64,000 nt of DNA from Eledone cirrhosa (Eukaryota): assembly GCA_964016885.1 (NCBI GenBank), contig OZ024742.1, positions 4,526,001 through 4,590,000 of the forward strand. The letters run 5' to 3'. The notes beneath the pieces are model-generated. The model saw nothing but the letters and a program-made list of their open reading frames with translations. It had not been told where the DNA came from and made no database searches. Shown here piece after piece: positions 9,237 to 64,000 of this stretch. Made by a program: the position numbers and the translations under genes. Position 1 is the first letter of the stretch. The number at the start of each line of letters is the position of its first letter.

Positions 9237-12200
9237 AAATATCTCCTTTCTCTGGATTACTTGGTCTAACGATATTACCAGATATATCTCCTTTCTCTGG
9301 GTTACTTGGTCTAACGATATTACCAGATATATCTCCTTTCTCTTGGTTACTTGCTCTAACGATATTACCAGATATATCTCCTTTCTCTGGGTTACTTGCT
9401 CTAACTATATTACCAGATATATCTCCTTTCTCTGGGTTACTTGCTCTAACGATATCACCAGATATATCTCCTTTCTCTGGGTTACTTGCTCTAACGATAT
9501 TACCAGATATATCTCCTTTCTCTGGGTTACTTGGTCTAACGATATTACCAGATATATCTCCTTTCTCTGGGTTACTTGCTCTAACTATATTACCAGATAT
9601 ATCTCCTTTCTCTGGGTTACTTGGTCTAACTATATTACCAGATATATCTCCTTTCTCTGTGTGACTTGCTCTAACGATATTACCAGATATATCTCCTTTC
9701 TCTGGGTTACTTGGTCTAACTATATTACCAGATATATCTCCTTTCTCTGTGTTACTTGCTCTAACGATATTACCAGATATATCTCCTTTCTCTGGGTTAC
9801 TTGCTCTAACGATATCACCAGATATATCTCCTTTCTCTGGGTTACTTGCTCTAACGATAGTACCAGATATATCTCCTTTCTCTGGGTTACTTGGTCTAAC
9901 GATATTACCAGATATATCTCCTTTCTCTGGGTTACTTGCTCTAACTATATTACCAGATATATCTCCTTTCTCTGGGTTACTTGGTCTAACTATATTACCA
10001 GATATATCTCCTTTCTCTGTGTTACTTGCTCTAACGATATTACCAGATATATCTCCTTTCTCTGGGTTACTTGGTCTAACTATATTACCAGATATATCTC
10101 CTTTCTCTGTGTTACTTGCTCTAACGATATTACCAGATATATCTCCTTTTCTCTGGGTTACTTGGTCTAACTATATTACCAGATATATCTCTTTTCTCTG
10201 GATTACTTGGTCTAACTATATTACCAGATACATCTCCTTTCTCTGGGTTACTTGGTCTAACGATATTACCAGATATATCTCCTTTCTCTTGGTTACTTGG
10301 TCTAACGATATTACCAGATATATCTCCTTTCTCTGGGTTACTTGGTCTAACGATATTACCAGATATATCTCCTTTCTCTTGGTTACTTGGTCTAACGATA
10401 TTACCAGATATATCTCCTTTCTCTGGGTTACTTGGTCTAACTATATTACCAGATATATCTCCTTTCTCTGGGTTACTTGGTCTAACTATATTACCAGATA
10501 TATCTCTTTTCTCTGGGTTACTTGGTCTAACTATATTACCAGATATATCTCCTTTCTCTCGGTTACTTGGTCTAACTATATTACCAGATACATCTCCTTT
10601 CTCTCGGTTACTTGGTCTAACTATATTACCAGATACATCTCCTTTCTCTCGGTTACTTGGTCTAACTATATTACCAGATACATCTCCTTTCTCTGGGTTA
10701 CTTGGTCTAACTATATTACCAGATACATCTCCTTTCTCTCGGTTACTTGGTCTAACTATATTACCAGATACATCTCCTTTCTCTCGGTTACTTGGTCTAA
10801 CTATATTACCAGATACATCTCCTTTCTCTGGGTTACTTGGTCTAACGATATCACCAGATATATCTCCTTTCTCTGGATTACTTGATCTAACGATATTACC
10901 AGATATATCTCCTTTCTCTGGGTTACTTGGTCTAACTATATTACCAGATATATCTCCTTTCTCTGGGTTACTTGGTCTAACTATATTACCAGATATATCT
11001 CCTTTCTCTGGGTTACTTGGTCTAACTATATTACCAGATATATCTCCTTTCTCTGGGTTACTTGCTCTAACGATATTACCAGATATATCTCTTTCTCTGG
11101 GTTACTTGGTCTAACTATATTACCAGATATATCTCCTTTCTCTGGGTTACTTGGTCTAACTATATTACCAGATATATCTCCTTTCTCTCGGTTACTTGGT
11201 CTAACTATATTACCAGATATATCTCCTTTCTCTGGGTTACTTGGTCTAACGATATTACCAGATATATCTCCTTTCTCTGGGTTACTTGGTCTAACGATAT
11301 CACCAGATATATCTCCTTTCTCTGTGTTACTTGGTCTAACTATATTACCTGATACATCTCCTTTCTCTGGGTTACTTGCTCTAACGATATTACCAGATAT
11401 ATCTCCTTTCTCTGGGTTACTTGCTCTAACGATATTACCAGATATATCTCCTTTCTCTGTGTTACTTGGTCTAACGATATCACCAGATATATCTCCTTTC
11501 TCTGGGTTACTTGGTCTAACTATATTACCAGATATATCTCCTTTCTCTGGGTTACTTGGTCTAACTATATTACCAGATATATCTCCTTTCTCTGGGTTAC
11601 TTGGTCTAACGATATTACCAGATATATCTCCTTTCTCTGGGTTACTTGGTCTAACTATATTACCAGATATATCTCCTTTCTCTGGGTTACTTGCTCTAAC
11701 GATATTACCAGATATATCTCCTTTCTCTGGGTTACTTGGTCTAACTATATTACCAGATATATCTCCTTTCTCTGGGTTACTTGGTCTAACTATATTACCA
11801 GATATATCTCCTTTCTCTGGGTTACTTGGTCTAACGATATTACCAGATATATCTCCTTTCTCTGGGTTACTTTGTCTAACGATATTACCAGATACATCTC
11901 CTTTCTCTGGGTTACTTGGTCTAACTATATTACCAGATACATCTCCTTTCTCTGGGTTACTTGGTCTAACTATATTACCAGATACACCTCCTTTCTCTGG
12001 GTTACTTGGTCTAACTATATTACCAGATATATCTCCTTTCTCTGGGTTACTTGGTCTAACGATATTACCAGATATATCTCCTTTCTCTGGGTTACTTGGT
12101 CTAACTATATTACCAGATATATCTCCTTTCTCTGGGTTACTTGGTCTAACTATATTACCAGATATATCTCCTTTCTCTGGGTTACTTGGTCTAACTATAT

Positions 12201-15200
12201 TACCAGATATATCTCCTTTCTCTGGGTTACTTGGTCTAACTATATTACCAGATATATCTCCTTTCTCTGGGTTACTTGGTCTAACGATATTACCAGATAT
12301 ATCTCCTTTCTCTTGGTTACTTGCTCTAACGATATTACCAGATATATCTCCTTTCTCTGGGTTACTTGGTCTAACTATATTACCAGATATATCTCTTTTC
12401 TCTGGGTTACTTGGTCTAACTATATTACCAGATATATCTCCTTTCTCTCGGTTACTTGGTCTAACGATATTACCAGATATATCTCTTTTCTCTGGGTTAC
12501 TTTGTCTAACGATATTACCAAATATATCTCCTTTCTCTGGGTTACTTGGTCTAACTATATTACCAGATATATCTCCTTTCTCTCGGTTACTTGGTCTAAC
12601 GATATTACCAGATATATCTCTTTTCTCTGGGTTACTTTGTCTAACGATATTACCAGATATATCTCCTTTCTCTGTGTTACTTGGTCTAACGATATCACCA
12701 GATATATCTCCTTTCTCTGGGTTACTTGGTCTAACTATATCACTAGATATATCTCCTTTCTCTGGGTTACTTGGTCTAACGATATTACCAAATATATCTC
12801 CTTTCTCTGTGTTACTTGCTCTAACTATATTACCAAATATATCTCTTTTCTCTGGGTTACTTGCTCTAACTATATTACCAAATATATCTCCTTTCTCTGG
12901 GTTACTTGGTCTAACTATATTACCAGATATATCTCCTTTCTCTGGGTTACTTGGTCTAACTATATTACCAGATATATCTCCTTTCTCTGTGTTACTTGCT
13001 CTAACTATATTACCAGATATATCTCCTTTCTCTGGGTTACTTGATCTAAGTATATTACCAGATATATCTCCTTTCTCTGGGTTACTTGGTCTAACTATAT
13101 TACCAGATATATCTCCTTTCTCTGGGTTACTTGGTCTAACTATATTACCAGATATATCTCCTTTCTCTGGGTTACTTGGTCTAACGATATTACCAGATAT
13201 ATCTCCTTTCTCTGGGTTACTTGGTCTAACTATATTACCAGATATATCTCCTTTCTCTGGGTTACTTGCTCTAACGATATTACCAGATATATCTCCTTTC
13301 TCTGGGTTACTTGGTCTAACTATATTACCAGATATATCTCCTTTCTCTGGGTTAGTTGGTCTAACTATATTACCAGATATATCTCCTTTCTCTGGGTTAC
13401 TTGGTCTAACGATATTACCAGATATATCTCCTTTCTCTGGGTTACTTTGTCTAACGATATTACCAGATACATCTCCTTTCTCTGGGTTACTTGGTCTAAC
13501 TATATTACCAGATACATCTCCTTTCTCTGGGTTACTTGGTCTAACTATATTACCAGATACACCTCCTTTCTCTGGGTTACTTGGTCTAACTATATTACCA
13601 GATATATCTCCTTTCTCTCGGTTACTTGGTCTAACGATATTACCAGATATATCTCCTTTCTCTGGGTTACTTGGTCTAACTATATTACCAGATATATCTC
13701 TTTTCTCTGGATTACTTGGTCTAACTATATTACCAGATACATCTCCTTTCTCTGGGTTACTTGGTCTAACGATATTACCAGATATATCTCCTTTCTCTTG
13801 GTTACTTGGTCTAACGATATTACCAGATATATCTCCTTTCTCTGGGTTACTTGGTCTAACGATATTACCAGATATATCTCCTTTCTCTTGGTTACTTGGT
13901 CTAACGATATTACCAGATATATCTCCTTTCTCTGGGTTACTTGGTCTAACTATATTACCAGATATATCTCCTTTCTCTGGGTTACTTGGTCTAACTATAT
14001 TACCAGATATATCTCTTTTCTCTGGGTTACTTGGTCTAACTATATTACCAGATATATCTCCTTTCTCTGGGTTACTTGGTCTAACTATATTACCAGATAC
14101 ATCTCCTTTCTCTCGGTTACTTGGTCTAACTATATTACCAGATACATCTCCTTTCTCTCGGTTACTTGGTCTAACTATATTACCAGATACATCTCCTTTC
14201 TCTGGGTTACTTGGTCTAACTATATTACCAGATACATCTCCTTTCTCTCGGTTACTTGGTCTAACTATATTACCAGATACATCTCCTTTCTCTCGGTTAC
14301 TTGGTCTAACTATATTACCAGATACATCTCCTTTCTCTGGGTTACTTGGTCTAACGATATCACCAGATATATCTCCTTTCTCTGGATTACTTGATCTAAC
14401 GATATTACCAGATATATCTCCTTTCTCTGGGTTACTTGGTCTAACTATATTACCAGATATATCTACTTTCTCTGGGTTACTTGGTCTAACTATATTACCA
14501 GATATATCTCCTTTCTCTGGGTTACTTGGTCTAACTATATTACCAGATATATCTCCTTTCTCTGGGTTACTTGCTCTAACGATATTACCAGATATATCTC
14601 TTTCTCTGGGTTACTTGGTCTAACTATATTACCAGATATATCTCCTTTCTCTGGGTTACTTGGTCTAACTATATTACCAGATATATCTCCTTTCTCTGGG
14701 TTACTTGGTCTAACTATATTACCAGATATATCTCCTTTCTCTGGGTTACTTGGTCTAACGATATTACCAGATATATCTCCTTTCTCTGGGTTACTTGGTC
14801 TAACGATATCACCAGATATATCTCCTTTCTCTGTGTTACTTGGTCTAACTATATTACCTGATATATCTCCTTTCTCTGGGTTACTTGCTCTAACGATATT
14901 ACCACATATATCTCCTTTCTCTGGGTTACTTGCTCTAACGATATTACCAGATATATCTCCTTTCTCTGTGTTACTTGGTCTAACGATATCACCAGATATA
15001 TCTCCTTTCTCTGGGTTACTTGGTCTAACTATATTACCAGATATATCTCCTTTCTCTGGGTTACTTGGTCTAACTATATTACCAGATATATCTCCTTTCT
15101 CTGGGTTACTTGGTCTAACGATATTACCAGATATATCTCCTTTCTCTGGGTTACTTGGTCTAACTATATTACCAGATATATCTCCTTTCTCTGGGTTACT

Positions 15201-18200
15201 TGGTCTAACTATATTACCAGATATATCTCCTTTCTCTGGGTTACTTGGTCTAACGATATTACCAGATATATCTCCTTTCTCTGGGTTACTTTGTCTAACG
15301 ATATTACCAGATACATCTCCTTTCTCTGGGTTACTTGGTCTAACTATATTACCAGATACATCTCCTTTCTCTGGGTTACTTGGTCTAACTATATTACCAG
15401 ATACACCTCCTTTCTCTGGGTTACTTGGTCTAACTATATTACCAGATATATCTCCTTTCTCTGGGTTACTTGGTCTAACGATATTACCAGATATATCTCC
15501 TTTCTCTGGGTTACTTGGTCTAACTATATTACCAGATATATCTCCTTTCTCTGGGTTACTTGGTCTAACGATATTACCAGATATATCTCCTTTCTCTGGG
15601 TTACTTGGTCTAACTATATTACCAGATATATCTCCTTTCTCTGGGTTACTTGGTCTAACTATATTACCAGATATATCTCCTTTCTCTGGGTTACTTGGTC
15701 TGACGATATTACCAGATATATCTCCTTTCTCTTGGTTACTTGCTCTAACGATATTACCAGATATATCTCCTTTCTCTGGGTTACTTGGTCTAACTATATT
15801 ACCAGATATATCTCTTTTCTCTGGGTTACTTGGTCTAACTATATTACCAGATATATCTCCTTTCTCTCGGTTACTTGGTCTAACGATATTACCAGATATA
15901 TCTCTTTTCTCTGGGTTACTTTGTCTAACGATATTACCAAATATATCTCCTTTCTCTGGGTTACTTGGTCTAACTATATTACCAGATATATCTCCTTTCT
16001 CTCGGTTACTTGGTCTAACGATATTACCAGATATATCTCTTTTCTCTGGGTTACTTTGTCTAACGATATTACCAGATATATCTCCTTTCTCTGTGTTACT
16101 TGGTCTAACGATATCACCAGATATATCTCCTTTCTCTGGGTTACTTGGTCTAACTATATCACTAGATATATCTCCTTTCTCTGGGTTACTTGGTCTAACG
16201 ATATTACCAAATATATCTCCTTTCTCTGTGTTACTTGCTCTAACTATATTACCAAATATATCTCTTTTCTCTGGGTTACTTGCTCTAACTATATTACCAA
16301 ATATATCTCCTTTCTCTGGGTTACTTGGTCTAACTATATTACCAGATATATCTCCTTTCTCTGGGTTACTTGGTCTAACTATATTACCAGATATATCTCC
16401 TTTCTCTGTGTTACTTGCTCTAACTATATTACCAGATATATCTCCTTTCTCTGGGTTACTTGATCTAAGTATATTACCAGATATATCTCCTTTCTCTGGG
16501 TTACTTGGTCTAACTATATTACCAGATATATCTCCTTTCTCTGGGTTACTTGGTCTAACTATATTACCAGATATATCTCCTTTCTCTGGGTTACTTGGTC
16601 TAACGATATTACCAGATATATCTCCTTTCTCTGGGTTACTTGGTCTAACTATATTACCAGATATATCTCCTTTCTCTGGGTTACTTGCTCTAACGATATT
16701 ACCAGATATATCTCCTTTCTCTGGGTTACTTGGTCTAACTATATTACCAGATATATCTCCTTTCTCTGGGTTACTTGGTCTAACGATATTACCAGATATA
16801 TCTCCTTTCTCTGGGTTACTTTGTCTAACGATATTACCAGATACATCTCCTTTCTCTGGGTTACTTGGTCTAACTATGTTACCAGATACATCTCCTTTCT
16901 CTGGGTTACTTGGTCTAACTATATTACCAGATACACCTCCTTTCTCTGGGTTACTTGGTCTAACTATATTACCAGATATATCTCCTTTCTCTCGGTTACT
17001 TGGTCTAACGATATTACCAGATATATCTCCTTTCTCTGGGTTACTTGGTCTAACTATATTACCAGATATATCTCCTTTCTCTGGGTTACTTGGTCTAACG
17101 ATATTACCAGATATATCTCCTTTCTCTGGGTTACTTGGTCTAACTATATTACCAGATATATCTCCTTTCTCTGGGTTACTTGGTCTAACTATATTACCAG
17201 ATATATCTCCTTTCTCTGGGTTACTTGGTCTAACGATATTACCAGATATATCTCCTTTCTCTTGGTTACTTGCTCTAACGATATTACCAGATATATCTCC
17301 TTTCTCTGGGTTACTTGGTCTAACTATATTACCAGATATATCTCTTTTCTCTGGGTTACTTGGTCTAACTATATTACCAGATATATCTCCTTTCTCTCGG
17401 TTACTTGGTCTAACGATATTACCAGATATATCTCTTTTCTCTGGGTTACTTTGTCTAACGATATTACCAAATATATCTCCTTTCTCTGGGTTACTTGGTC
17501 TAACTATATTACCAGATATATCTCCTTTCTCTGGGTTACTTGGTCTAACGATATTACCAGATATATCTCCTTTCTCTGGGTTACTTGGTCTAACTATATT
17601 ACCAGATATATCTCCTTTCTCTGGGTTACTTGGTCTAACTATATTACCAGATATATCTCCTTTCTCTGGGTTACTTGGTCTAACGATATTACCAGATATA
17701 TCTCCTTTCTCTTGGTTACTTGCTCTAACGATATTACCAGATATATCTCCTTTCTCTGGGTTACTTGGTCTAACTATATTACCAGATATATCTCTTTTCT
17801 CTGGGTTACTTGGTCTAACTATATTACCAGATATATCTCCTTTCTCTCGGTTACTTGGTCTAACGATATTACCAGATATATCTCTTTTCTCTGGGTTACT
17901 TTGTCTAACGATATTACCAAATATATCTCCTTTCTCTGGGTTACTTGGTCTAACTATATTACCAGATATATCTCCTTTCTCTCGGTTACTTGGTCTAACG
18001 ATATTACCAGATATATCTCTTTTCTCTGGGTTACTTTGTCTAACGATATTACCAGATATATCTCCTTTCTCTGTGTTACTTGGTCTAACGATATCACCAG
18101 ATATATCTCCTTTCTCTGGGTTACTTGGTCTAACTATATCACTAGATATATCTCCTTTCTCTGGGTTACTTGGTCTAACGATATTACCAAATATATCTCC

Positions 18201-21200
18201 TTTCTCTGTGTTACTTGCTCTAACTATATTACCAAATATATCTCTTTTCTCTGGGTTACTTGCTCTAACTATATTACCAAATATATCTCCTTTCTCTGGG
18301 TTACTTGGTCTAACTATATTACCAGATATATCTCCTTTCTCTGGGTTACTTGGTCTAACTATATTACCAGATATATCTCCTTTCTCTGTGTTACTTGCTC
18401 TAACTATATTACCAGATATATCTCCTTTCTCTGGGTTACTTGATCTAAGTATATTACCAGATATATCTCCTTTCTCTGGGTTACTTGGTCTAACTATATT
18501 ACCAGATATATCTCCTTTCTCTGGGTTACTTGGTCTAACTATATTACCAGATATATCTCCTTTCTCTGGGTTACTTGGTCTAACGATATTACCAGATATA
18601 TCTCCTTTCTCTGGGTTACTTGGTCTAACTATATTACCAGATATATCTCCTTTCTCTGGGTTACTTGGTCTAACGATATTACCAGATATATCTCCTTTCT
18701 CTGGGTTACTTGGTCTAACTATATTACCAGATATATCTCCTTTCTCTGGGTTACTTGGTCTAACGATATTACCAGATATATCTCCTTTCTCTGGGTTACT
18801 TTGTCTAACGATATTACCAGATACATCTCCTTTCTCTGGGTTACTTGGTCTAACTATATTACCAGATACATCTCCTTTCTCTGGGTTACTTGGTCTAACT
18901 ATATTACCAGATACACCTCCTTTCTCTGGGTTACTTGGTCTAACTATATTACCAGATATATCTCCTTTCTCTCGGTTACTTGGTCTAACGATATTACCAG
19001 ATATATCTCCTTTCTCTGGGTTACTTGGTCTAACTATATTACCAGATATATCTCCTTTCTCTGGGTTACTTGGTCTAACGATATTACCAGATATATCTCC
19101 TTTCTCTGGGTTACTTGGTCTAACTATATTACCAGATATATCTCCTTTCTCTGGGTTACTTGGTCTAACTATATTACCAGATATATCTCATTTCTCTGGG
19201 TTACTTGGTCTAACGATATTACCAGATATATCTCCTTTCTCTTGGTTACTTGCTCTAACGATATTACCAGATATATCTCCTTTCTCTGGGTTACTTGGTC
19301 TAACTATATTACCAGATATATCTCTTTTCTCTGGGTTACTTGGTCTAACTATATTACCAGATATATCTCCTTTCTCTCGGTTACTTGGTCTAACGATATT
19401 ACCAGATATATCTCTTTTCTCTGGGTTACTTTGTCTAACGATATTACCAAATATATCTCCTTTCTCTGGGTTACTTGGTCTAACTATATTACCAGATATA
19501 TCTCCTTTCTCTGGGTTACTTGGTCTAACGATATTACCAGATATATCTCCTTTCTCTGGGTTACTTGGTCTAACTATATTACCAGATATATCTCCTTTCT
19601 CTGGGTTACTTGGTCTAACTATATTACCAGATATATCTCCTTTCTCTGGGTTACTTGGTCTAACGATATTACCAGATATATCTCCTTTCTCTTGGTTACT
19701 TGCTCTAACGATATTACCAGATATATCTCCTTTCTCTGGGTTACTTGGTCTAACTATATTACCAGATATATCTCTTTTCTCTGGGTTACTTTGTCTAACG
19801 ATATTACCAAATATATCTCCTTTCTCTGGGTTACTTGGTCTAACTATATTACCAGATATATCTCCTTTCTCTGGGTTACTTGGTCTAACGATATTACCAG
19901 ATATATCTCTTTTCTCTGGGTTACTTTGTCTAACGATATTACCAGATATATCTCCTTTCTCTGTGTTACTTGGTCTAACGATATCACCAGATATATCTCC
20001 TTTCTCTGGGTTACTTGGTCTAACTATATCACTAGATATATCTCCTTTCTCTGGGTTACTTGGTCTAACGATATTACCAAATATATCTCCTTTCTCTGTG
20101 TTACTTGCTCTAACTATATTACCAAATATATCTCTTTTCTCTGGGTTACTTGCTCTAACTATATTACCAAATATATCTCCTTTCTCTGGGTTACTTGGTC
20201 TAACTATATTACCAGATATATCTCCTTTCTCTGGGTTACTTGGTCTAACTATATTACCAGATATATCTCCTTTCTCTGTGTTACTTGCTCTAACTATATT
20301 ACCAAATATATCTCCTTTCTCTGGGTTACTTGGTCTAACTATATTACCAGATATATCTCCTTTCTCTGGGTTACTTGGTCTAACTATATTACCAGATATA
20401 TCTCCTTTCTCTGTGTTACTTGCTCTAACTATATTACCAGATATATCTCCTTTCTCTGGGTTACTTGATCTAAGTATATTACCAGATATATCTCCTTTCT
20501 CTGGGTTACTTGGTCTAACTATATTACCAGATATATCTCCTTTCTCTGGGTTACTTGGTCTAACTATATTACCAGATATATCTCCTTTCTCTGGGTTACT
20601 TGGTCTAACGATATTACCAGATATATCTCCTTTCTCTGGGTTACTTGGTCTAACTATATTACCAGATATATCTCCTTTCTCTGGGTTACTTGGTCTAACG
20701 ATATTACCAGATATATCTCCTTTCTCTGGGTTACTTGGTCTAACTATATTACCAGATATATCTCCTTTCTCTGGGTTACTTGGTCTAACGATATTACCAG
20801 ATATATCTCCTTTCTCTGGGTTACTTTGTCTAACGATATTACCAGATACATCTCCTTTCTCTGGGTTACTTGGTCTAACTATATTACCAGATACATCTCC
20901 TTTCTCTGGGTTACTTGGTCTAACTATATTACCAGATACACCTCCTTTCTCTGGGTTACTTGGTCTAACTATATTACCAGATATATCTCCTTTCTCTCGG
21001 TTACTTGGTCTAACGATATTACCAGATATATCTCCTTTCTCTGGGTTACTTGGTCTAACTATATTACCAGATATATCTCCTTTCTCTGGGTTACTTGGTC
21101 TAACGATATTACCAGATATATCTCCTTTCTCTGGGTTACTTGGTCTAACTATATTACCAGATATATCTCCTTTCTCTGGGTTACTTGGTCTAACTATATT

Positions 21201-23905
21201 ACCAGATATATCTCATTTCTCTGGGTTACTTGGTCTAACGATATTACCAGATATATCTCCTTTCTCTTGGTTACTTGCTCTAACGATATTACCAGATATA
21301 TCTCCTTTCTCTGGGTTACTTGGTCTAACTATATTACCAGATATATCTCTTTTCTCTGGGTTACTTGGTCTAACTATATTACCAGATATATCTCCTTTCT
21401 CTCGGTTACTTGGTCTAACGATATTACCAGATATATCTCTTTTCTCTGGGTTACTTTGTCTAACGATATTACCAAATATATCTCCTTTCTCTGGGTTACT
21501 TGGTCTAACTATATTACCAGATATATCTCCTTTCTCTGGGTTACTTGGTCTAACGATATTACCAGATATATCTCCTTTCTCTGGGTTACTTGGTCTAACT
21601 ATATTACCAGATATATCTCCTTTCTCTGGGTTACTTGGTCTAACTATATTACCAGATATATCTCCTTTCTCTGGGTTACTTGGTCTAACGATATTACCAG
21701 ATATATCTCCTTTCTCTTGGTTACTTGCTCTAACGATATTACCAGATATATCTCCTTTCTCTGGGTTACTTGGTCTAACTATATTACCAGATATATCTCT
21801 TTTCTCTGGGTTACTTTGTCTAACGATATTACCAAATATATCTCCTTTCTCTGGGTTACTTGGTCTAACTATATTACCAGATATATCTCCTTTCTCTCGG
21901 TTACTTGGTCTAACGATATTACCAGATATATCTCTTTTCTCTGGGTTACTTTGTCTAACGATATTACCAGATATATCTCCTTTCTCTGTGTTACTTGGTC
22001 TAACGATATCACCAGATATATCTCCTTTCTCTGGGTTACTTGGTCTAACTATATCACTAGATATATCTCCTTTCTCTGGGTTACTTGGTCTAACGATATT
22101 ACCAAATATATCTCCTTTCTCTGTGTTACTTGCTCTAACTATATTACCAAATATATCTCTTTTCTCTGGGTTACTTGCTCTAACTATATTACCAAATATA
22201 TCTCCTTTCTCTGGGTTACTTGGTCTAACTATATTACCAGATATATCTCCTTTCTCTGGGTTACTTGGTCTAACTATATTACCAGATATATCTCCTTTCT
22301 CTGTGTTACTTGCTCTAACTATATTACCAGATATATCTCCTTTCTCTGGGTTACTTGATCTAAGTATATTACCAGATATATCTCCTTTCTCTGGGTTACT
22401 TGGTCTAACTATATTACCAGATATATCTCCTTTCTCTGGGTTACTTGGTCTAACTATATTACCAGATATATCTCCTTTCTCTGGGTTACTTGGTCTAACG
22501 ATATTACCAGATATATCTCCTTTCTCTGGGTTACTTGGTCTAACTATATTACCAGATATATCTCCTTTCTCTGGGTTACTTGCTCTAACGATATTACCAG
22601 ATATATCTCCTTTCTCTGGGTTACTTGGTCTAACTATATTACCAGATATATCTCCTTTCTCTGGGTTACTTGGTCTAACGATATTACCAGATATATCTCC
22701 TTTCTCTGGGTTACTTTGTCTAACGATATTACCAGATACATCTCCTTTCTCTGGGTTACTTGGTCTAACTATATTACCAGATACATCTCCTTTCTCTGGG
22801 TTACTTGGTCTAACTATATTACCAGATACACCTCCTTTCTCTGGGTTACTTGGTCTAACTATATTACCAGATATATCTCCTTTCTCTCGGTTACTTGGTC
22901 TAACGATATTACCAGATATATCTCCTTTCTCTGGGTTACTTGGTCTAACTATATTACCAGATATATCTCCTTTCTCTGGGTTACTTGGTCTAACGATATT
23001 ACCAGATATATCTCCTTTCTCTGGGTTACTTGGTCTAACTATATTACCAGATATATCTCCTTTCTCTGGGTTACTTGGTCTAACTATATTACCAGATATA
23101 TCTCCTTTCTCTGGGTTACTTGGTCTAACGATATTACCAGATATATCTCCTTTCTCTTGGTTACTTGCTCTAACGATATTACCAGATATATCTCCTTTCT
23201 CTGGGTTACTTGGTCTAACTATATTACCAGATATATCTCTTTTCTCTGGGTTACTTGGTCTAACTATATTACCAGATATATCTCCCCTCTCTCGGTTACT
23301 TGGTCTAACGATATTACCAGATATATCTCTTTTCTCTGGGTTACTTTGTCTAACGATATTACCAAATATATCTCCTTTCTCTGGGTTACTTGGTCTAACT
23401 ATATTACCAGATATATCTCCTTTCTCTCGGTTACTTGGTCTAACGATATTACCAGATATATCTCTTTTCTCTGGGTTACTTTGTCTAACGATATTACCAG
23501 ATATATCTCCTTTCTCTGTGTTACTTGGTCTAACGATATCACCAGATATATCTCCTTTCTCTGGGTTACTTGGTCTAACTATATCACCAGATATATCTCC
23601 TTTCTCTGGGTTACTTGGTCTAACGATATTACCAGATATATCTCCTTTCTCTGGGTTACTTGGTCTAACTATATTACCAAATATATCTCTTTTCTCTGGG
23701 TTACTTGCTCTAACTATATTACCAAATATATCTCCTTTCTCTATGTTACTTGCTCTAACTATATTACCAGATATATCTCCTTTCTCTGGGTTACTTGATC
23801 TAAGGATATTACCAGATATATCTCCTTTCTCTGGGTTACTTGGTCTAACGATATTACCAAATATATCTCCTTTCTCTGGGTTACTTGCTCTAACGATATC
23901 ACCAG
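9237..23905. repeat. 45-bp tandem array (~326 units) with higher-order repeats
   Basis: Unit gatatatctcctttctctgggttacttggtctaac(t/g)atattacca. Diagnostic variants recur at 1.5-2.0 kb and ~3.5 kb spacing. Only three single-base indels seen (~10150, ~11090, ~14600). Confidence 0.98.
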
Positions 23906-24107
23906 AGACTTTATACATGCTATTGGTTAACAAAATATTTTGTTCCAACTTAACACCAGCTCAATTAACAGTTTGTTACTTCGTTTTCATTATTGCTGTT
24001 ATTTCGCCTTATTGGTTAGCGTGTTGGGTTTAGAAGAGTTTGAGTTCGAATCCGGGATCATTTCTGTTCTTTCTTCTTTTTTAGTTTTCTTTATATTATT
24101 ATTATTT

Positions 24108-29361: not shown

Positions 29362-31907
29362 CCTTGAATCTCAGTCATTGATGTTGGTTAACTGGAAAGT
29401 CCGTTGGATTGAATATCAAACCACTACCTGCAGCTTCAGATATTCAGGACGTATCGGAGGGTTCTTGCCGTTCCAAGCAAGCATGCCTTTTGAAGCGTTC
29501 CAAAAAGCGTGAAGGGGCCGATTTTCTTTAACCATCCCTGGAAACCTTTGGAGATAGTCCCCAGTGCGCCTATGACAATCGGGATCACTTTGACTTCATG
29601 GCAGTTCCAAATCCTTTTCACCTCCCACTTTAGGTCCTGGTATCGGTTAATTTTCTCCCTCTCCTTCTCTTGCACTCTCGTGTCGAACGGGCAGGCCACA
29701 TCCACAATCAGGCACGATCTTTTTTCTTTGTCCACAACCACCAGGTCAGGTCTATTGTGTTCCAGTTTTTTGTCCGTCTGTATCCTAAAATCCCACAGCA
29801 CCTTCACCTGACTGTTCTCCATCACCGCCTCTGGCCTATGCTCATACCATTTCTCAGAATGTGGTAGATTGTTTACTTTGCACAGGTGCCAGTGGATCAC
29901 CCTGCCCATCACATCGTGTCTCCAGCCCTTATAGTGGGTCTGGGCTAGGTGTTTACACTCGGACACAATGTGAGCCACAGTCTCCTCTCTCTCTCCACAG
30001 ATCCTGCACAGTGGGCTAGCCTCCTCCCTGTAGATATGGTGCTTCAACCACTTCGTTTTGAGGGCCTGCTCCTGCGCAGCCATTAGCATTCCTTCTGTAG
30101 CCTTTTTGAGGTCTCCTCTTCTCAACCAGTTCCATGTCTGTGGATCTCTAAATTCAGTTTTCTCAAAGAAGGTACTATGAAGGGATTTTCCCTTAAGGCT
30201 GCTCTTCCTCCTTGATGTTATTTCCTCCTTGGATATCCCCTGGCCTACTGTCCCCTCCTTCAGTACAGCTCTGAGCATTGGCTCCTTACTATAGGTCACG
30301 TATTTGTATAGGTTGTTTTTCTCCATCTGAACACAGTCCTCTATGCTGATAAGACCTCTTCCACCCTCAGATCTCCTTAGGTAGAGTCTATCGACATCAC
30401 TCCTCTTGTGGAACATGTTGTAGATAGTCAATAGCTTCCTAGTCTTCCTATCCATTTCTTTTTGTTCAGCAACATTCCATCTCAGAATTCCCGCACTGTA
30501 CCTAATAATAGACACAGCTCGGGAATTTACTGCGCTTATGGCATTTCTGCTGTTCAGATGTGACTTCAATACGCTCCTTACTCTCCGAATGTATTCAGTT
30601 CTTAACAATTCCTTCATTTTTTTGTTCTTTATGCCATCAGCCTCCAGAACGCCCAAATACTTGTATCCTTCCTCAGAGTCAATTTCCTTTATCATCTCAC
30701 CTGTTGGTATCTGGATCCCGTTACTTCTGCTCAACCTACCCCTCCTCATCACAATGACTCCACATTTACCAATACCAAACTGCATACATATATCACTGCT
30801 GAAAATACGGACAGTGTCAACAAGCACATCCAACTCCTTCTCACTTTTCCCGAAGAGCTTAAGATCGTCCATGAAGAGGAGGTGATTGATGGTAAGCTCT
30901 CCCCTTCCCAACTTGTATCCTGCTCTCACTTTTCGCAGCATAATGGTCAAGGGCATCAGGGCAAGGACAAACAACAGAGGGGACAGGCTATCTCCCTGGA
31001 AGATACCTCTCTTGATCTTCACGCTTCCCAAGGATACTCCAGTTGATGTCAACTCTGTCTCCCAGGACCCCATACTCCTGCCCAGCAACTGTCTGATGTT
31101 ATCCGCCACCCTGAAGATCTCCAGGCTTTTGGTGATCCAGGAATGAGGCACCATGTCAAATGCCTTTCTGTAGTCTATCCATCCCATGGCAAGATCAGTG
31201 TGTCTCCTCCTGCAATTCCCCATTACCATCTTATCAATAAGCAACTGGTCCTTTGTACGACGTGACTTCTTTCGGCATCCTTTCTGTTCGTCCGGTAACA
31301 AGTTGTTTGTGTGGAGGTGATGGCAGATTTCCTCAGACACAATGCTCGTCAACAGTTTCCACATTACGGGCAGACATGTGATAGGTCTATAGTTGGTAAC
31401 ATCATTACCCTTGATTCGGTCTTTCATTATCAGAACTGTGGTACCTTTTGTCAACCACTCTGGCACCTCACCCGACACCAAGCAGTCATTGAACATGGCC
31501 GTCAGCTTCGGGTGGAGGGATGTTAAATGTTTAATCCAATACCCCTGCACACCATCTGGGCCTGGTGATTTCCAGTTGGTTAGTTTTTTGGCTTGCCCCT
31601 TAAGAGTTTCAACTGTGATACTCAAATCAGTCTGTTGTTGTGCCTGCTCACCGATCTCCCTCTGTACTGTCTCAATCCACCCTGCCTGGGCATTGTGTCT
31701 AACATCCTGCTCCCATATTCCTCTCCAGAATGTTTTAGCTTGTTCCGCCCCAGGGATCAAGTCGTTGCCTCTTTCTTTCCCCTCAAGCTGTCCAAACAGC
31801 ATCTTCTGGTTGTTGTCGAACATGCGGTTCTGTTTATACTGACTGACTCTGTTCTCGTATCGCCTGATTTTGGCACTCTTTGCTACAATGCGTTGCTTCA
31901 ATTCCTC

Positions 31908-31908
<1 letters not shown>
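29362..31908 (-). mobile_element. 5'-truncated R4/Dong-like LINE (RLE type) in (TAA)n
   Basis: Bounded by (TAA)n on both sides; contains the 821-aa ORF listed next plus a short 3' UTR. Confidence 0.88.
29436..31901 (-). CDS. RT + CCHC zinc knuckle + restriction-like endonuclease (uninterrupted, N-terminally truncated)
   Basis: YRPITCL, QGDSLSPLLF, FMDDLKL, CRICGEREETVAHIVSEC, RHD, NRPDLVVVD..VDVACP..EKINRY. Confidence 0.92.
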   Translation of the reverse strand: MKQRIVAKSAKIRRYENRVSQYKQNRMFDNNQKMLFGQLEGKERGNDLIPGAEQAKTFWRGIWEQDVRHNAQAGWIETVQREIGEQAQQQTDLSITVETLKGQAKKLTNWKSPGPDGVQGYWIKHLTSLHPKLTAMFNDCLVSGEVPEWLTKGTTVLIMKDRIKGNDVTNYRPITCLPVMWKLLTSIVSEEICHHLHTNNLLPDEQKGCRKKSRRTKDQLLIDKMVMGNCRRRHTDLAMGWIDYRKAFDMVPHSWITKSLEIFRVADNIRQLLGRSMGSWETELTSTGVSLGSVKIKRGIFQGDSLSPLLFVLALMPLTIMLRKVRAGYKLGRGELTINHLLFMDDLKLFGKSEKELDVLVDTVRIFSSDICMQFGIGKCGVIVMRRGRLSRSNGIQIPTGEMIKEIDSEEGYKYLGVLEADGIKNKKMKELLRTEYIRRVRSVLKSHLNSRNAISAVNSRAVSIIRYSAGILRWNVAEQKEMDRKTRKLLTIYNMFHKRSDVDRLYLRRSEGGRGLISIEDCVQMEKNNLYKYVTYSKEPMLRAVLKEGTVGQGISKEEITSRRKSSLKGKSLHSTFFEKTEFRDPQTWNWLRRGDLKKATEGMLMAAQEQALKTKWLKHHIYREEASPLCRICGEREETVAHIVSECKHLAQTHYKGWRHDVMGRVIHWHLCKVNNLPHSEKWYEHRPEAVMENSQVKVLWDFRIQTDKKLEHNRPDLVVVDKEKRSCLIVDVACPFDTRVQEKEREKINRYQDLKWEVKRIWNCHEVKVIPIVIGALGTISKGFQGWLKKIGPFTLFGTLQKACLLGTARTLRYVLNI

Positions 31909-31989
<81 letters not shown>

Positions 31990-31998: not shown

Positions 31999-35768
<3,770 letters not shown>

Positions 35769-36774: not shown

Positions 36775-37075
36775 TGATAACTTTGATAAGTTTCGGCCAG
36801 TATTGGCCAAGGAAATGTCTAACTTAATTGCACCACCTGGCGAAGACTTTCAGATCAGGATTTGGACACCATGGCCCACTCAAGTAGAGAGTTATTGTTT
36901 ACGGAGGCATATCCGGGTGTTGGAGGTTTATCCGGGATTTCTTGAGGGAATTTGTCCAAAGATTTCTTGAACTTGATGGGGACTGTTTCTGTTTTAATGT
37001 GTTTTGGTGTAATATTAAAGAGCGGGGCCAATTGTGGTGAAATAGTTGTGCCGTATCATGTTGTCATGCTATAGA
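36775..37075 (-). mobile_element. 3' fragment of a CR1/Jockey-group LINE
   Basis: Minus-strand translation (with frameshift) IGPALFNITPKH..FKKSLDKFPQEIPDKPPTPGY..NSLLEW. Confidence 0.6.
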
Positions 37076-37089
37076 CTACGTTTCTAGAA

Positions 37090-37770
37090 ACGTAGTCTAT
37101 AGCATAAGATGTACAGAGGGTACTTGCAGAAACATGACAACAACATACATAGGCGAGACAGCTCGTAGCATAGGTGAAAGGATAGACCAACACTGGGGGG
37201 AACTAAAAGGACGAAAAAACGGGTCAGTACTATACGAACATGCCAGACAACAACACGACGGTAACATAGACAACATAGAAATTAGAATAATATCTAAACA
37301 TAGAAATGACCCAGCAGATAGGCAAATCAGAGAAGCCAGTGAAATAGAACTTAGAAGGCCAAGACTAAACAGAAAGAATGAATGGAATAACAACAACACC
37401 CAAACAAACAACACTGACCTAAGAGAAGTATAATTAAATAAATAAATAGATAAATAAATAAATAAATAAATACATACACAAGCACAATAACAACAAACAC
37501 ATATAAACACACACTAGTAAACATAGAATACATTAACCAATACACAGTCACCCAATCACGAACACACATCAAACAAAATACTATACACACAGGCAAACGC
37601 ATACGCAAAGAAAACAAAATAAAATAAACAAACAAACAAATAAATAAATAAAAATATAAACAGACTAAATAAAGATGGCGTAGAAATACAATGCAACGGG
37701 AGGAATCTATAGCACCACTGACGATGTTGCAGAAGTGCAACGAAAGAACTTTGATAAACTATATATATGT
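37090..37770 (+). mobile_element. 3' end of a Penelope-like element: GIY-YIG endonuclease, 3' UTR, hammerhead, ending at (TA)n
   Basis: VYSIRC..YIGETARSIGERIDQH..RQIREA..LNRKNEW (ORF 37134-37433), hammerhead motif downstream. Confidence 0.85.
37714..37755 (+). ncRNA. Type I hammerhead ribozyme
   Basis: acca CTGACGA t gttgca-gaag-tgcaac GAAA gaac TT tgat; stem I has one mismatch. Confidence 0.7.
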
Positions 37771-38288
37771 GTTTGTCTATATTGTATCTGTATTATTTTT
37801 GACCGTTGGTCAGTCAATGGCAACATTGAGGACCGAATAAATTAGATTACCGATATAAAAGACACAGAAGCGAAAAGCGAAAACCAACCAAACAGTGAGT
37901 GTGTTCTGTTATTAATTCTGGCAATATTACACAAATATGACCCTCCCCAAGTATAACAATATTTGTTTCGACACACAATTTCATATAAAAAACCTCCCAA
38001 AACTAATTCATCGCCGTTATATATATATATATTGCTGGCCTTGTGCCTAAAGTAGAAACAGTTAATTCCCAAAACTAATCAGATCAGAGCAAACAGCACG
38101 GACACTCTATCTCAAAATTATTTTTGAAAAGCATTTAGAAATGCGCAACCGGTAAAAACTTAAAAACTTAAAACCACAACCGAATACTAAGCCATACAAT
38201 CACTAATACTCTTTTATTCCTAATTAAACCATTTTTCAACTGTGAACAATTTGTCAGCATTTTCTATTCCGTTTACCAATATATATAT

Positions 38289-47897: not shown

Positions 47898-48265
47898 AAC
47901 AAAGTCAATCTGTAAACGCAGAAGTGGATATTTCAAAAAACGTTGCAACCGGAGGAAGACAGAAAGACGATACTTTGGTTCGTGGAAACGTTCCCTGGCA
48001 AAGAACGGGAAAAAACGAATATAATACGTCATTAATGGGAGCGGTGAAAAACAATTACGCGCAAAGACAGAACCACGTTTATGGTATAAAAGAAGTCGTA
48101 GACTAATATTCTCTTAGGTGGTTCATAGAGACGTTCTCTGGCAATGAACGGAAAAAACGAAGATAATACGTCATATGTGGAGCGTGGAGAACAATGCACG
48201 CAAAGACAAAACCACGTAAATGGTATAGCTGAAGTCATAGACTAAAGATTTAACTAGGAAACCGA

Positions 48266-48619
48266 ATGAATCTCCGCTTCAGTAACATTGTCTACAAAAG
48301 TAAGGTTGAAACACCCACGTCCCGTAGGGTCTACATAGGGTTAACCACCAATAGATTCAAGCAGCGTCTTTACATGCATACCCATTCTTTTCGTTACCCT
48401 CTAAGAAGGAATATGACGTCACTTTCGGCTTATATCTGGAGTCTAAAAGACAACCACACCCAATATAAGTTACACTGGGAGATCCTAGCTAGGGCTAGAT
48501 CGTATAACGGAAATAAAAGACCACGTGACCTCTCCGCCGCTGAGGCCCTGGAAATACTCTACGCCACAGACCACATCTTAAACAAAAAATCTGAGGCAAT
48601 TTCAGCTTGTAAACATTAA
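48266..48619 (+). pseudogene. GIY-YIG endonuclease domain (PLE, truncated)
   Basis: NIVYK..VYIGLTTNRFKQRLYMH..SF..TSLSAYIWSLK..WEIL..LNKKSE..CKH. Confidence 0.85.
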
Positions 48620-54499: not shown

Positions 54500-54940
54500 T
54501 TTTAAAAGACTTTTGAAGACCGTATGCTATTGTTTTAGAGTAGTGACAAACTCACTTACTTTAAACTCACTTACTTTAATTAAGCATAAAATGTATTGCA
54601 AAATACATTATATATATATTCTTATATATATTGCTATTTCAGAGCTCCAATTCTAATTTTTAATTTCTGCCTGACCGGCAACCGCTCTGTATAATCAGTT
54701 CCTGATTATTTACTAGAATTCTATAAGAATATAACATCAGTGATCTCAGTAGACAGGAGGGAGTAGTTAGCCTTGATAAGCATGAAAAAATGCGAAACAA
54801 GGCCTTGTCGGCTTTATCTCCTCTGTTTGCTGAGATTAAAGTAAGTGAGTTTGTCACTACTCTAAAACAATAGCATACGGTCTTCAAAATGCTTTTAATT
54901 AAGCATAAAGTGTATTGCAAAATACATTATATATACATTC
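54500..54940. mobile_element. Rearranged PLE terminal element: ~65-bp inverted arms plus ~45-bp direct repeat
   Basis: 54501-54564 is inverted at 54836-54898; ttaattaagcataaa..caaaatacattatata occurs at ~54576 and ~54895. Confidence 0.7.
54769..54813 (+). ncRNA. Compact type I hammerhead with U3-A8 core
   Basis: agcc TTGATAA gcat-gaaaaa-atgc GAAA caaggccttg TC ggct; all three stems pair perfectly. Confidence 0.85.
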
Positions 54941-54980
<40 letters not shown>

Positions 54981-55070
54981 ATATTTATTATATATTATAT
55001 ATTATATGTTATCAAGTGAAATGACAGGAGGCCAAATATGCTGAATTTCCTTAATTATTTATTTCTGCAA

Positions 55071-58889: not shown

Positions 58890-59172
58890 AAGGGAGAGAA
58901 TTGGGAGTGTGTAACACTCCACTTATCAAATAGGCAGTATATGGTTAGCTCAATGTCAGGGGACAGAGCCGTAATACAATTAACAACAAAGAGCGCTTAG
59001 AACATAGGTATATCTTTAATTGCTAACAGTGTTTCGTCCACACTAGAAGTGGGACTCTTCAGAGCATAAAGAGTAAATACAAAGTATACAAGCAAGAGTC
59101 CCACTTCTAGTGTGGACGAAACACTGTTAGCAATTAAAGATATACCTATGTTCTAAGCGCTCTTTGTTGTTA

Positions 59173-62507: not shown

Positions 62508-62552
62508 AGTCATAGTCCTTTCGTCACACACTCTGTGACCTCTTCAGTGACT
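62508..62552 (-). ncRNA. Type I hammerhead in the inverted pLTR upstream of the PLE RT
   Basis: agtca CTGAAGA g gtcaca-gagtg-tgtgac GAAA ggac TA tgact. Confidence 0.85.
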
Positions 62553-62604
62553 GGGGATTCCTTTCTTTGTTTCTGTGCCTTTCCTTTCTTCTATCCTACG
62601 CCAT

Positions 62605-64000
62605 TTAGGCAGTATGGATGTTGTGTCCCTGTATCCATCTATTGACGTGGATTTTGCTGTGGAGAAATGCGTAGAAATGATCAGCGAGAGCAAGGTTGAG
62701 TTCCGTGGGATTGATACCAGTGAGCTGGGACTTCTACTTAAGCTTACCCATATTAATAGTTACCTAGACACTTATGACCTTAGCAACCTGTGCCCTACAA
62801 GACCAGCAAGAGGCAGACCACCTACCATTACCTCACTGGCCAAGAAAACCCACACAGATAGATGGAACGGGTGGACCAGAGCCATACGGACACCCGAAAA
62901 CCACGATGAACTGAAGAAAATGATTGCACATGCGGTAGGGGCCAGCATAAAATTAACCCTTAAGGAACATATGTTCAAATTTAATGGTAAAACATATGCC
63001 CAAGAGGAAGGAGCAGCCATTGGTGTTAGCATTGCAGGCGACATAGCTAACTTATTCATGGTATGGTGGGACAGTAGACTTAAACAAAAACTTAAAGAAC
63101 AATTAGAAGACAGCTTAACCCTGATAATGTACTCCCGCTACGTAAATGATATAAACATCGTAGTTAAGACACCCCCACTAAAGAACAGTCAGGAACTAGA
63201 GAAAAACACAATGGAAAGCATCCAGCAAATAGCAAACTCCATCCACCAGAGCATTAGAGTTACTATAGACTACCCAATTAGACACCCCAACCATCGATTA
63301 CCTGTACTAGACACAGAGCTCTGGTTAGATACCATTAACAACCAAAAACAAATCCTCCATTCCCATTATGCCAAACCCATGACTTCCAAACATCTGATCC
63401 ACCGAAACTCGGCCATTTCGGACCATACCAAAATCAACATACTGATTGCGGATTTGGTACGGGTGATGAGAAATGTGTCCCGCATGTGCAACCCCGAAGA
63501 ACTAGAGAGACACATACAACACTTCATCCACCGTATGCAGTTCTCTGGCTACAATCAGAGAGATAGAATCAGAGTGTATAAAGGAGCCAGAACCAAATGG
63601 GAAAAAATGGTAAATAATTGTTTCTACTTTTGGCACAAGGCCAGCAATTACCCAGTACATTACTGGTACTTTATTTTATCGACCCCGTAAGGATGAAAGG
63701 CAAAGTTAACTTCGGCGGGATTTGAACACAGACCGTAAAGGGACGTAACTATGCTGGAAAGCATGGCGTCCGACTCTCTACTGATACTGCCAATCCACCG
63801 CCCTAAAAATGGTAAATAATGACATAAATGGGACCTGCCCCTTGTATAGGAGCAAATTTTGGAATAGAATAGAAAGAACTAGGAACAAGGCCAATAGAAT
63901 AAACTCATGGTATGATAGCAATAAATACCAGAGTGTAATGTTCATCAATACAACCCCTAGAGGCGAACTAACCTACAAATTTAGAAGGGCCCTAAATAAA
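62605..64000 (+). mobile_element. 5'-truncated Penelope-like reverse transcriptase, interrupted by a SINE, runs off the window
   Basis: SMDVVSLYPSI, QEEGAAIG..IANLFM, RYVNDI (YVDD altered), LPVLD, HYAKP, SGY. The frame stays open after the SINE is removed (CPLYRSKFW...VMFINTTP). Confidence 0.9.
63619..63804 (-). mobile_element. Full-length SINE family A with 16-bp TSD
   Basis: aaaaatggtaaataat at 63603-63618 and 63805-63820. Confidence 0.93.

What the first reader, a model, noticed from the sequence alone, without database searches (positions are those of the whole stretch)
54769..54813. Perfect compact hammerhead with compensatory U3-A8 core (UUGAUAA)
Seen: all three stems pair perfectly, GUC cleavage triplet, palindromic stem III (caaggccttg), but the core reads UUGAUAA rather than CUGANGA. 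Established: C3-G8 forms a Watson-Crick pair in the active hammerhead, so U3-A8 preserves it. Inference: a functional variant that canonical-core searches would miss; the palindrome may allow dimeric cleavage.
Basis: partly seen in the sequence, partly recalled or inferred. Interest (0 to 1): 0.75.

Follow-up and report, generated by a model that had tools for sequence, protein, structure and literature searches.

The report
Dimer-gated hammerhead in Penelope-type retrozyme
This is one copy of a 319-base non-coding repeat found in over a thousand places in this animal genome; it carries a self-cutting RNA fold with an already published U-A core swap, is predicted to cut only when two copies pair, and was likely pasted in by a Penelope-type jumping gene.

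Summary
The motif is real: a type I hammerhead with a U3-A8 core, GUC cut site after 54809 and a palindromic stem III. It lies in a 319-bp non-coding repeat (1,035 exact pattern hits in the 3.0-Gb genome; 0 with the usual core and the same stem II). Homologous sister families carry C3-G8 at the same place, and a tree built without the core shows one switch, so the change is compensatory. Stems I-III covary between subfamilies. Folding predicts that a lone copy is trapped in a competing hairpin, while two copies fold into a double hammerhead. The copies show Penelope signatures: partial tandems, inverted 5' arms, (TA)n targets, and two fixed 3' ends 26 bp apart, one per arm in 29 of 35 two-armed insertions. 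U3-A8 is published (Perreault 2011; about 1,300 hits in Schistosoma Penelope elements, Cervera 2014), as are dimeric cleavage and retrozyme-Penelope kinship. This scan has noted U3-A8 retrozymes before, on other DNA of this genome and in other genomes. Cleavage, expression and the helper element were not shown. Verdict: a new member of a known kind, modest interest.

The parts
54511..54569 (-). Inverted 5'-truncated arm (unit positions 257-315; holds no hammerhead)
   Evidence: BLAST of the unit on L001, 98% identity
54575..54893 (+). One full 319-bp non-coding repeat unit (start point set by the direct repeat; the unit is circularly permutable)
   Evidence: longest ATG frame 28-44 aa in five family representatives
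54741..54838 (+). Extended stem I hairpin that carries the hammerhead at its tip
   Evidence: 6 of 14 distal pairs change on both sides
54769..54813 (+). Type I hammerhead motif
54773..54779 (+). Core with U3 (54773) and A8 (54778)
   Evidence: U-A in 11 and C-G in 5 of 16 representatives
54780..54793 (+). Stem II and 6-nt loop 2; the G at 54784 is particular to this copy (C, A or T in others)
   Evidence: all 4 pairs change on both sides
54797..54808 (+). 12-nt self-complementary stem III segment; predicted helix between two copies
   Evidence: duplex -19.5 kcal/mol
54770..54803 (+). Predicted competing 'lock' helix in the monomer (54770-54775 with 54798-54803), which ties up U3, U4 and G5
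   Evidence: pair probability 0.99
54809..54809 (+). C17; predicted cleavage 3' of this base (GUC triplet)
   Evidence: sequence plus established hammerhead numbering; not tested
54894..54950 (+). Partial repeat of the unit, ending at the 'short' fixed 3' end
54928..55007 (.). (TA)n microsatellite into which the 3' end runs (likely target)
   Evidence: 55 of 70 arm ends run into TA

Best explanation
The motif is the hammerhead ribozyme of a 319-bp non-coding, non-autonomous retroelement (animal non-LTR retrozyme type) that is predicted to cut only as a double hammerhead and was likely copied into (TA)n runs by a Penelope-like reverse transcriptase-endonuclease. Shown: the repeat family, its tandem and inverted layout, the fixed 3' ends, the covarying stems and the single C3-G8 to U3-A8 switch. 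Predicted by folding: a lone unit (linear or circular) folds U3-U4-G5 back onto the 5' half of the palindrome and is off; two units in a tandem transcript, or two molecules, swap strands, pair their palindromes into a 12-bp stem III and form two active sites. Inferred from published systems: cutting at each GUC releases unit-length RNA that may circularise; a Penelope-type protein nicks AT-rich DNA on both strands and starts reverse transcription at two fixed sites, giving more-than-unit arms, one ending short and one ending 26 bp longer. The copy in this window has only one hammerhead, so it could cut only with a partner molecule.
For: Family: 1,035 exact hits for the core plus stem II pattern, control 0; 0 hits with the usual core. 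Sister families: 1,891 hits (316-bp unit, U3-A8), 658 hits (C3-G8), 18,158 hits to a motif outside the hammerhead of a 310/311-bp unit whose fetched copies have C3-G8. Tree of 162 copies with the 7 core columns removed: one change between U3-A8 and C3-G8, support 100/99. Structure count on 16 hand-picked representatives: 93.2% of cells paired, 59 cells with changes on both sides against 22.8 +/- 3.4 shuffled, slid controls at most 48.6% paired. Tandem folding: the double hammerhead is the lowest-energy fold in 3 of 5 real tandem pairs and within 0.2 kcal/mol in a fourth; co-fold of two window copies gives it at -12.1 kcal/mol against two monomers. Lock helix probability above 0.8 in 33 of 40 distinct U3-A8 motifs. 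Arms: one short and one long end in 29 of 35 two-armed insertions, P 5.8e-5 against p = 0.5. Published parallels: PLE partial tandems, inverted 5' copies, optional tail and (TA)n bias (PMC8557442); two RT start sites and extension of both strands (PMC11167929); U3-A8 in nature and active in vitro (PMC3088659; PMC4209133).
Against: No cleavage data. Minimal PLE hammerheads cut poorly even as dimers (PMC4209133); only 1 of 9 frog retrozyme dimers cut (bioRxiv 10.64898/2026.07.22.740005); hammerhead mutants did not change insertion by the anole PLE protein in vitro (PMC11167929). No autonomous element sharing this unit's sequence was found. Nearest-neighbour folding ignores Mg2+ and loop-loop contacts, so it underrates any hammerhead monomer. 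In the 316-bp tandem tested, the double hammerhead lies 2.3 kcal/mol above the best fold. Two of the five measures did not beat the shuffles clearly (pairs changed on both sides 41/500; further pair types 480/500), and related sequences inflate such counts. The core switch is a single event, so it cannot show selection by repetition.
Confidence: 0.72

Rival explanations
1. The fold is kept as a structural or protein-binding element of a Penelope-dependent RNA and cuts rarely, or only with the protein's help; U3-A8 is a tolerated, slower core.
For: The anole PLE hammerhead cuts only with protein and is dispensable for insertion in vitro; low activity of minimal PLE hammerheads; 8 of 9 frog dimers did not cut; the monomer is predicted to misfold.
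Against: The catalytic letters U4, G5, A6, A9, G12, A13, A14 and A15.1 are invariant across 16 representatives of families 63-93% identical while the stems turn over; more-than-unit tandem arms fit a circular or multimeric template.
Confidence: 0.2
2. The repeat is a DNA-level satellite or inverted-repeat element spread by recombination or a DNA transposase, and the hammerhead is a relic of a Penelope pLTR.
For: Long tandem arrays exist; the 2026 preprint discusses local amplification by unequal crossover; many insertions look like inverted-repeat elements.
Against: 5' ends vary while 3' ends are fixed at two sites; the one-short-one-long arm pattern; paired stem changes between successive subfamilies need selection on RNA structure.
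Confidence: 0.06
3. U3-A8 in this copy is chance decay of a C3-G8 hammerhead, or the whole match is chance.
For: None found; Rfam does not reach its cut-off.
Against: U3-A8 in 42 of 44 BLAST-found copies; 0 genome hits for the C3-G8 version with this stem II; 0 motifs in 20 shuffles.
Confidence: 0.01

Closest known systems
Animal non-LTR retrozymes (Cervera and de la Pena 2020, PMC7229834; passages and section 14 read)
   Same: Non-coding 170-400-nt unit, one type I hammerhead per unit, tandem copies, low GC, palindromic stem III with dimer-dependent cutting in amphibians.
   Different: Here the core is U3-A8, the palindrome is 10-12 nt rather than a short capped stem, arrays are mostly 1-3 units with an inverted arm, and no circular RNA has been shown.
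U3-A8 minimal hammerheads of Cercyon PLEs in Schistosoma mansoni (Cervera and de la Pena 2014, PMC4209133; parts 1-2 of 4 read)
   Same: Same core swap (about 1,300 hits there), type I, short proximal stem I, palindromic stem III, dimer model.
   Different: Those have a 7-8 bp stem II, an extra base before it and little or no stem III; this one has a 4-bp stem II with a 6-nt loop, a long distal stem I, and sits in a non-coding unit.
Natural U3-A8 hammerheads (Perreault et al. 2011, PMC3088659; passages read)
   Same: C3-G8 covaries to U3-A8 in several natural examples; such cores were already shown active in vitro.
   Different: Those were scattered examples; here the switch can be placed on one branch of one repeat lineage.
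Penelope-like elements and their non-autonomous derivatives (Craig et al. 2021, PMC8557442, passages; Frangieh et al. 2024, PMC11167929, parts 1-2 of 4; Li et al. 2026, bioRxiv 10.64898/2026.07.22.740005, parts 1 and 3 of 5)
   Same: Partial tandems, inverted 5'-truncated copy, optional tail between two RT start sites, microsatellite targets, hammerhead upstream of the start sites; retrozymes proposed as PLE derivatives.
   Different: No ORF; the tail is about 26 bp rather than 30-40; no autonomous partner with shared sequence was found.

Membership tests
Type I hammerhead ribozyme | Three-way junction with stems I-III and the conserved core in order | tested here: met
   stem III fully formed only between two copies
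Type I hammerhead ribozyme | Watson-Crick pair between positions 3 and 8 | tested here: met
   U-A in 11 and C-G in 5 of 16 rows, none unpaired; one change on the tree
Type I hammerhead ribozyme | NUH cleavage triplet | tested here: met
   GUC at 54807-54809; GUA in the 310-bp family
Type I hammerhead ribozyme | Loop 1-loop 2 tertiary contact | tested here: inconclusive
   6-nt loop 2 with invariant A at three positions and an internal loop in stem I, but no contact was modelled; this copy has a private G at 54784
Type I hammerhead ribozyme | Self-cleavage | not testable with these tools
   no assay possible
Rfam hammerhead families | Score at or above the gathering cut-off | tested here: not met
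   18.9 bits against 52 for RF02275; none
Non-LTR retrozyme | Non-coding unit of 150-450 bp with one type I hammerhead, in tandem copies | tested here: met
   the window's own copy is a single unit plus partial repeats
Non-LTR retrozyme | Expressed as linear and circular unit-length RNA | not testable with these tools
   no RNA holder listed
Non-autonomous Penelope-like element | Partial tandems, inverted 5' copy, optional tail, microsatellite target | tested here: met
Non-autonomous Penelope-like element | Sequence shared with the pLTR of an autonomous PLE | tested here: inconclusive
   none found in a limited search; one PLE family has a U3-A8 motif and a similar (TA)n end, but no wider likeness by eye
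Autonomous Penelope-like element | ORF with reverse transcriptase and GIY-YIG endonuclease | tested here: not met
   longest ATG frame 28-44 aa

The most novel reading that the evidence does not exclude
The element carries an evolved on/off switch: a helix between the core's own U3-U4-G5 and the palindrome locks every lone or circular unit, and only a second unit unlocks both. The pairing was kept while stem I, the palindrome and core position 3 all changed across subfamilies. With sister families that bracket the C3-G8 to U3-A8 switch and a one-start-site-per-arm insertion pattern, this would be a natural series for testing what hammerheads do in Penelope-type transposition.
Probability: 0.3. 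Interest if true: 0.5.

Novelty: new member of a known kind. Interest (0 to 1): 0.27.

Why it matters
The core swap itself is known, so the headline claim is ordinary. What remains useful: (1) thousands of hammerhead copies in this genome are invisible to Rfam and to CUGANGA descriptors; (2) the family ties an invertebrate retrozyme to Penelope-type insertion marks, which a 2026 vertebrate preprint left open for other animals; (3) homologous families with C3-G8 and U3-A8 and palindromes of 4 to 10 nt allow a direct test of dimer gating and of the role of hammerheads in Penelope mobility, which is still unclear.

Tried and rejected
Expression: no RNA holder listed for the unit; DNA contigs of 4 runs were laid and show only presence of related repeats. 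Autonomous partner: a permissive BLAST of five monomers on loci L001-L095 and the window gave only AT-rich noise outside family copies (output partly cut); a pattern for the tail followed by foreign sequence gave 17 hits, all variant or truncated family copies on reading 220 bases of each; 3' ends of PLE fragments in the loci and 30 loci of one abundant PLE family showed no shared unit sequence by eye. Only one PLE family was followed up, so a partner is not excluded. The idea that the lock helix is a special gain of U3 was tested and weakened: an in-silico C3-G8 version of the window copy raises the monomer hammerhead share from about 0.0006 to 0.07, but a 4-bp version of the lock is also predicted in 9 of 11 motifs of a C3-G8 sister family, and it is eroded in part of the 316-bp family. 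Rows B and C were mis-parsed by my script and are superseded. Literature: C3U/G8A terms gave 0 papers; 'U3-A8' with hammerhead gave PMC4209133; a search with cephalopod terms listed 20 papers, none with 'hammerhead ribozyme', and is uninformative; a search for a published monomer-lock fold gave nothing relevant in 15 listed papers. Lunse et al. (PMC5785218) and Przybilski and Hammann 2007 (PMC1986816) are not held; I saw only their titles in reference lists. No supplements and no Repbase entries were seen; they may already hold this family or this fold. A PDB search with the PLE protein found nothing.

Full report
Observation. The 45 bases read as described: stem I 54769-54772 with 54810-54813, core UUGAUAA 54773-54779, stem II 54780-54793, GAAA, a 10-nt palindrome 54798-54807, and U-C at 54808-54809. 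A relaxed scan found 2 hammerhead motifs in the window and none in 20 shuffles. Stem I continues into a long helix, and the 101-nt context folds at z = -5.98. Rfam gives nothing at its cut-offs and a weak best hit to Hammerhead_HH9, 18.9 bits against 52. Two corrections: stem III is only 4 bp in one molecule, and the best fold of one molecule is not the hammerhead.

Context. The window is a repeat-dense piece of a 3.0-Gb animal genome, with LINE and PLE fragments and microsatellites. I did not determine the host. The motif lies in a 319-bp unit (54575-54893), followed by a 57-bp partial repeat that runs into (TA)n and preceded by a 59-bp inverted piece. BLAST gave 210 matches from 40 scored of 1,821 candidates, many at 96-98% over the whole unit. 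An exact pattern of core plus stem II hits 1,035 places, control 0; the same pattern with the usual core hits 0. Five family representatives have no ATG frame above 44 aa.

Is U3-A8 compensatory? Among the distinct copies in the 30 BLAST loci, 42 of 44 have U3-A8; the other two are a junction misalignment and a deletion. Following loose ends in public contigs and variant patterns led to homologous families: a 316-bp unit with U3-A8 and a changed stem II (1,891 hits); a 310/311-bp unit, 63-66% identical to the others, whose fetched copies (15 overlapping loci from 2 sites) have C3-G8 (18,158 hits to a motif outside the hammerhead); and an older family with C3-G8 (658 hits). Of 165 distinct copies, 116 are U-A, 38 C-G and 11 other; this tally is biased because the patterns contained the core. 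A tree of 162 copies (3 junction chimeras dropped) with the 7 core columns removed separates the two states by one branch, support 100/99. With C3-G8 in three outlying groups the simplest reading is one switch to U3-A8; the root is by midpoint only. On 16 representatives that I chose, 93.2% of cells pair, 59 cells change on both sides (shuffled 22.8 +/- 3.4), all 4 stem II pairs and 2 of 6 stem III pairs change on both sides, and slid controls pair at most 48.6%; two other measures do not clearly beat the shuffles. The centre of the palindrome changes from GGCC to AGCU and stays self-complementary. Those bases would be a loop in a monomer, so this favours pairing between copies.

Predicted gating. 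In one copy, 54770-54775 pairs with 54798-54803, about 4 kcal/mol better than the hammerhead, which gets a share near 0.0004-0.0006. This lock has probability above 0.8 in 33 of 40 distinct U3-A8 motifs, but also, with 4 bp, in 9 of 11 motifs of a C3-G8 family, and it is weak in part of the 316-bp family. So U3 strengthens it in this subfamily (in-silico C3-G8 share 0.07) but did not create it. In real tandem pairs the unconstrained best fold is the double hammerhead in 3 of 5, within 0.2 kcal/mol in one, and 2.3 kcal/mol above in one; two separate monomer hammerheads have shares of 1e-11 or less. Two window copies co-fold into the double hammerhead, 12.1 kcal/mol better than two monomers, and a 319-nt circle folds locked. 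These energies ignore Mg2+ and tertiary contacts. The window's locus has one hammerhead only, and a private G in loop 2.

How it spreads. Copies have variable 5' ends, 1-3 tandem units (more in some arrays) and often an inverted arm. The 3' ends fall mainly at two fixed points about 26 bp apart. Prompted by an earlier scan note (e1-10313605), I tested arm pairing in 80 loci: 29 of 35 two-armed insertions have one short and one long end (P 5.8e-5 against p = 0.5; one row is spurious and two may be duplicates), and 55 of 70 ends run into TA. Partial tandems, inverted 5' copies, an optional tail and (TA)n bias are described for PLEs (PMC8557442, passages). The anole PLE protein cuts and extends both strands and starts at two sites that define the tail (PMC11167929, parts 1-2 of 4). 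I infer a Penelope-type helper. The genome has many PLEs; one abundant family (17,451 first-look candidates; 664-aa frame with RVT_1 at E 2.2e-7; GIY-YIG and Neptune-type linker judged by eye from recalled motifs) shows a hammerhead-like motif, nearly always with U3-A8 and with an unclear stem I, about 200 bases before a (TA)n end in 27 of 30 loci. It shares no wider sequence with this unit by eye, and a targeted pattern found no coding continuation of the tail. The helper is unnamed.

What is known. Natural U3-A8 cores were reported in 2011 and had been shown active in vitro (PMC3088659, passages). About 1,300 U3-A8 motifs were found with Schistosoma PLEs, with the dimer model and low in vitro activity (PMC4209133, parts 1-2 of 4). 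Animal non-LTR retrozymes are 170-400-nt tandem units with type I hammerheads, dimer-dependent in amphibians (PMC7229834, passages and section 14). A 2026 preprint proposes that they derive from PLE pLTRs and found cutting in 1 of 9 dimers (parts 1 and 3 of 5). Earlier notes of this scan describe U3-A8 retrozymes in this and other genomes; no note matched this sequence. I found no published account of the lock helix, but two key papers were not held and no supplements were seen.

Verdict. A real, conserved, compensatory U3-A8 hammerhead in a retrozyme-type element with Penelope footprints. It works like an amphibian-type dimer-dependent retrozyme; membership lacks the RNA and cleavage tests. 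New member of a known kind; interest 0.27. The lock-and-unlock switch is the one part that could be new (probability 0.3).

Noticed in passing
G000, L061-L075 (for example C1:1239932-1244209): A 310/311-bp sister family with a C3-G8 core, a 4-nt palindrome and a GUA site; 18,158 motif hits, in long head-to-head inverted arrays of near-identical units. A matching piece is in contigs of three other coded organisms.
   Followed up: partly
L076-L095; L142-L172; L101 and L159: Further subfamilies: a 316-bp unit with 9-nt interrupted palindromes, an older C3-G8 family with a 7-nt stem III, and two C3-G8 copies with a long palindrome that branch next to the U3-A8 clade.
   Followed up: partly
L006, L019, L046, L085: A separate repeat family with a minimal U3-A8 hammerhead (core UUGAAAA, palindrome CCGG, GUA site), in inverted pairs ending in (TA)n.
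   Followed up: no
L096-L125: An abundant autonomous PLE family with a U3-A8 hammerhead-like motif in its 3' region; stem I is ambiguous.
   Followed up: partly
window about 59020-59066, minus strand: A second hammerhead-like motif with the usual core.
   Followed up: no
window 37041-37433 (+), about 37700-37760 and about 38110-38160: A PLE endonuclease fragment, a minimal hammerhead-like motif in its 3' region, and a decayed U3-A8 motif further on (positions of the motifs estimated by eye).
   Followed up: no
window 48254-48619 (+) and 62551-63690 (+): Other PLE-like fragments (endonuclease and reverse transcriptase by eye; no Pfam hit).
   Followed up: no
window 9239-23906: A 45-bp tandem array of 326 copies, 95% matches, with long open frames on both strands.
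   Followed up: no
window 29436-31988 (-) and 32262-33779 (-): LINE-type reverse transcriptase frames of 850 and 505 aa.
   Followed up: no
L005, L011, L013, L034, L037, L050, L055, L076: Several other hammerhead families with the usual core and long stem II lie near these insertions, which suggests shared (TA)n targets.
   Followed up: no
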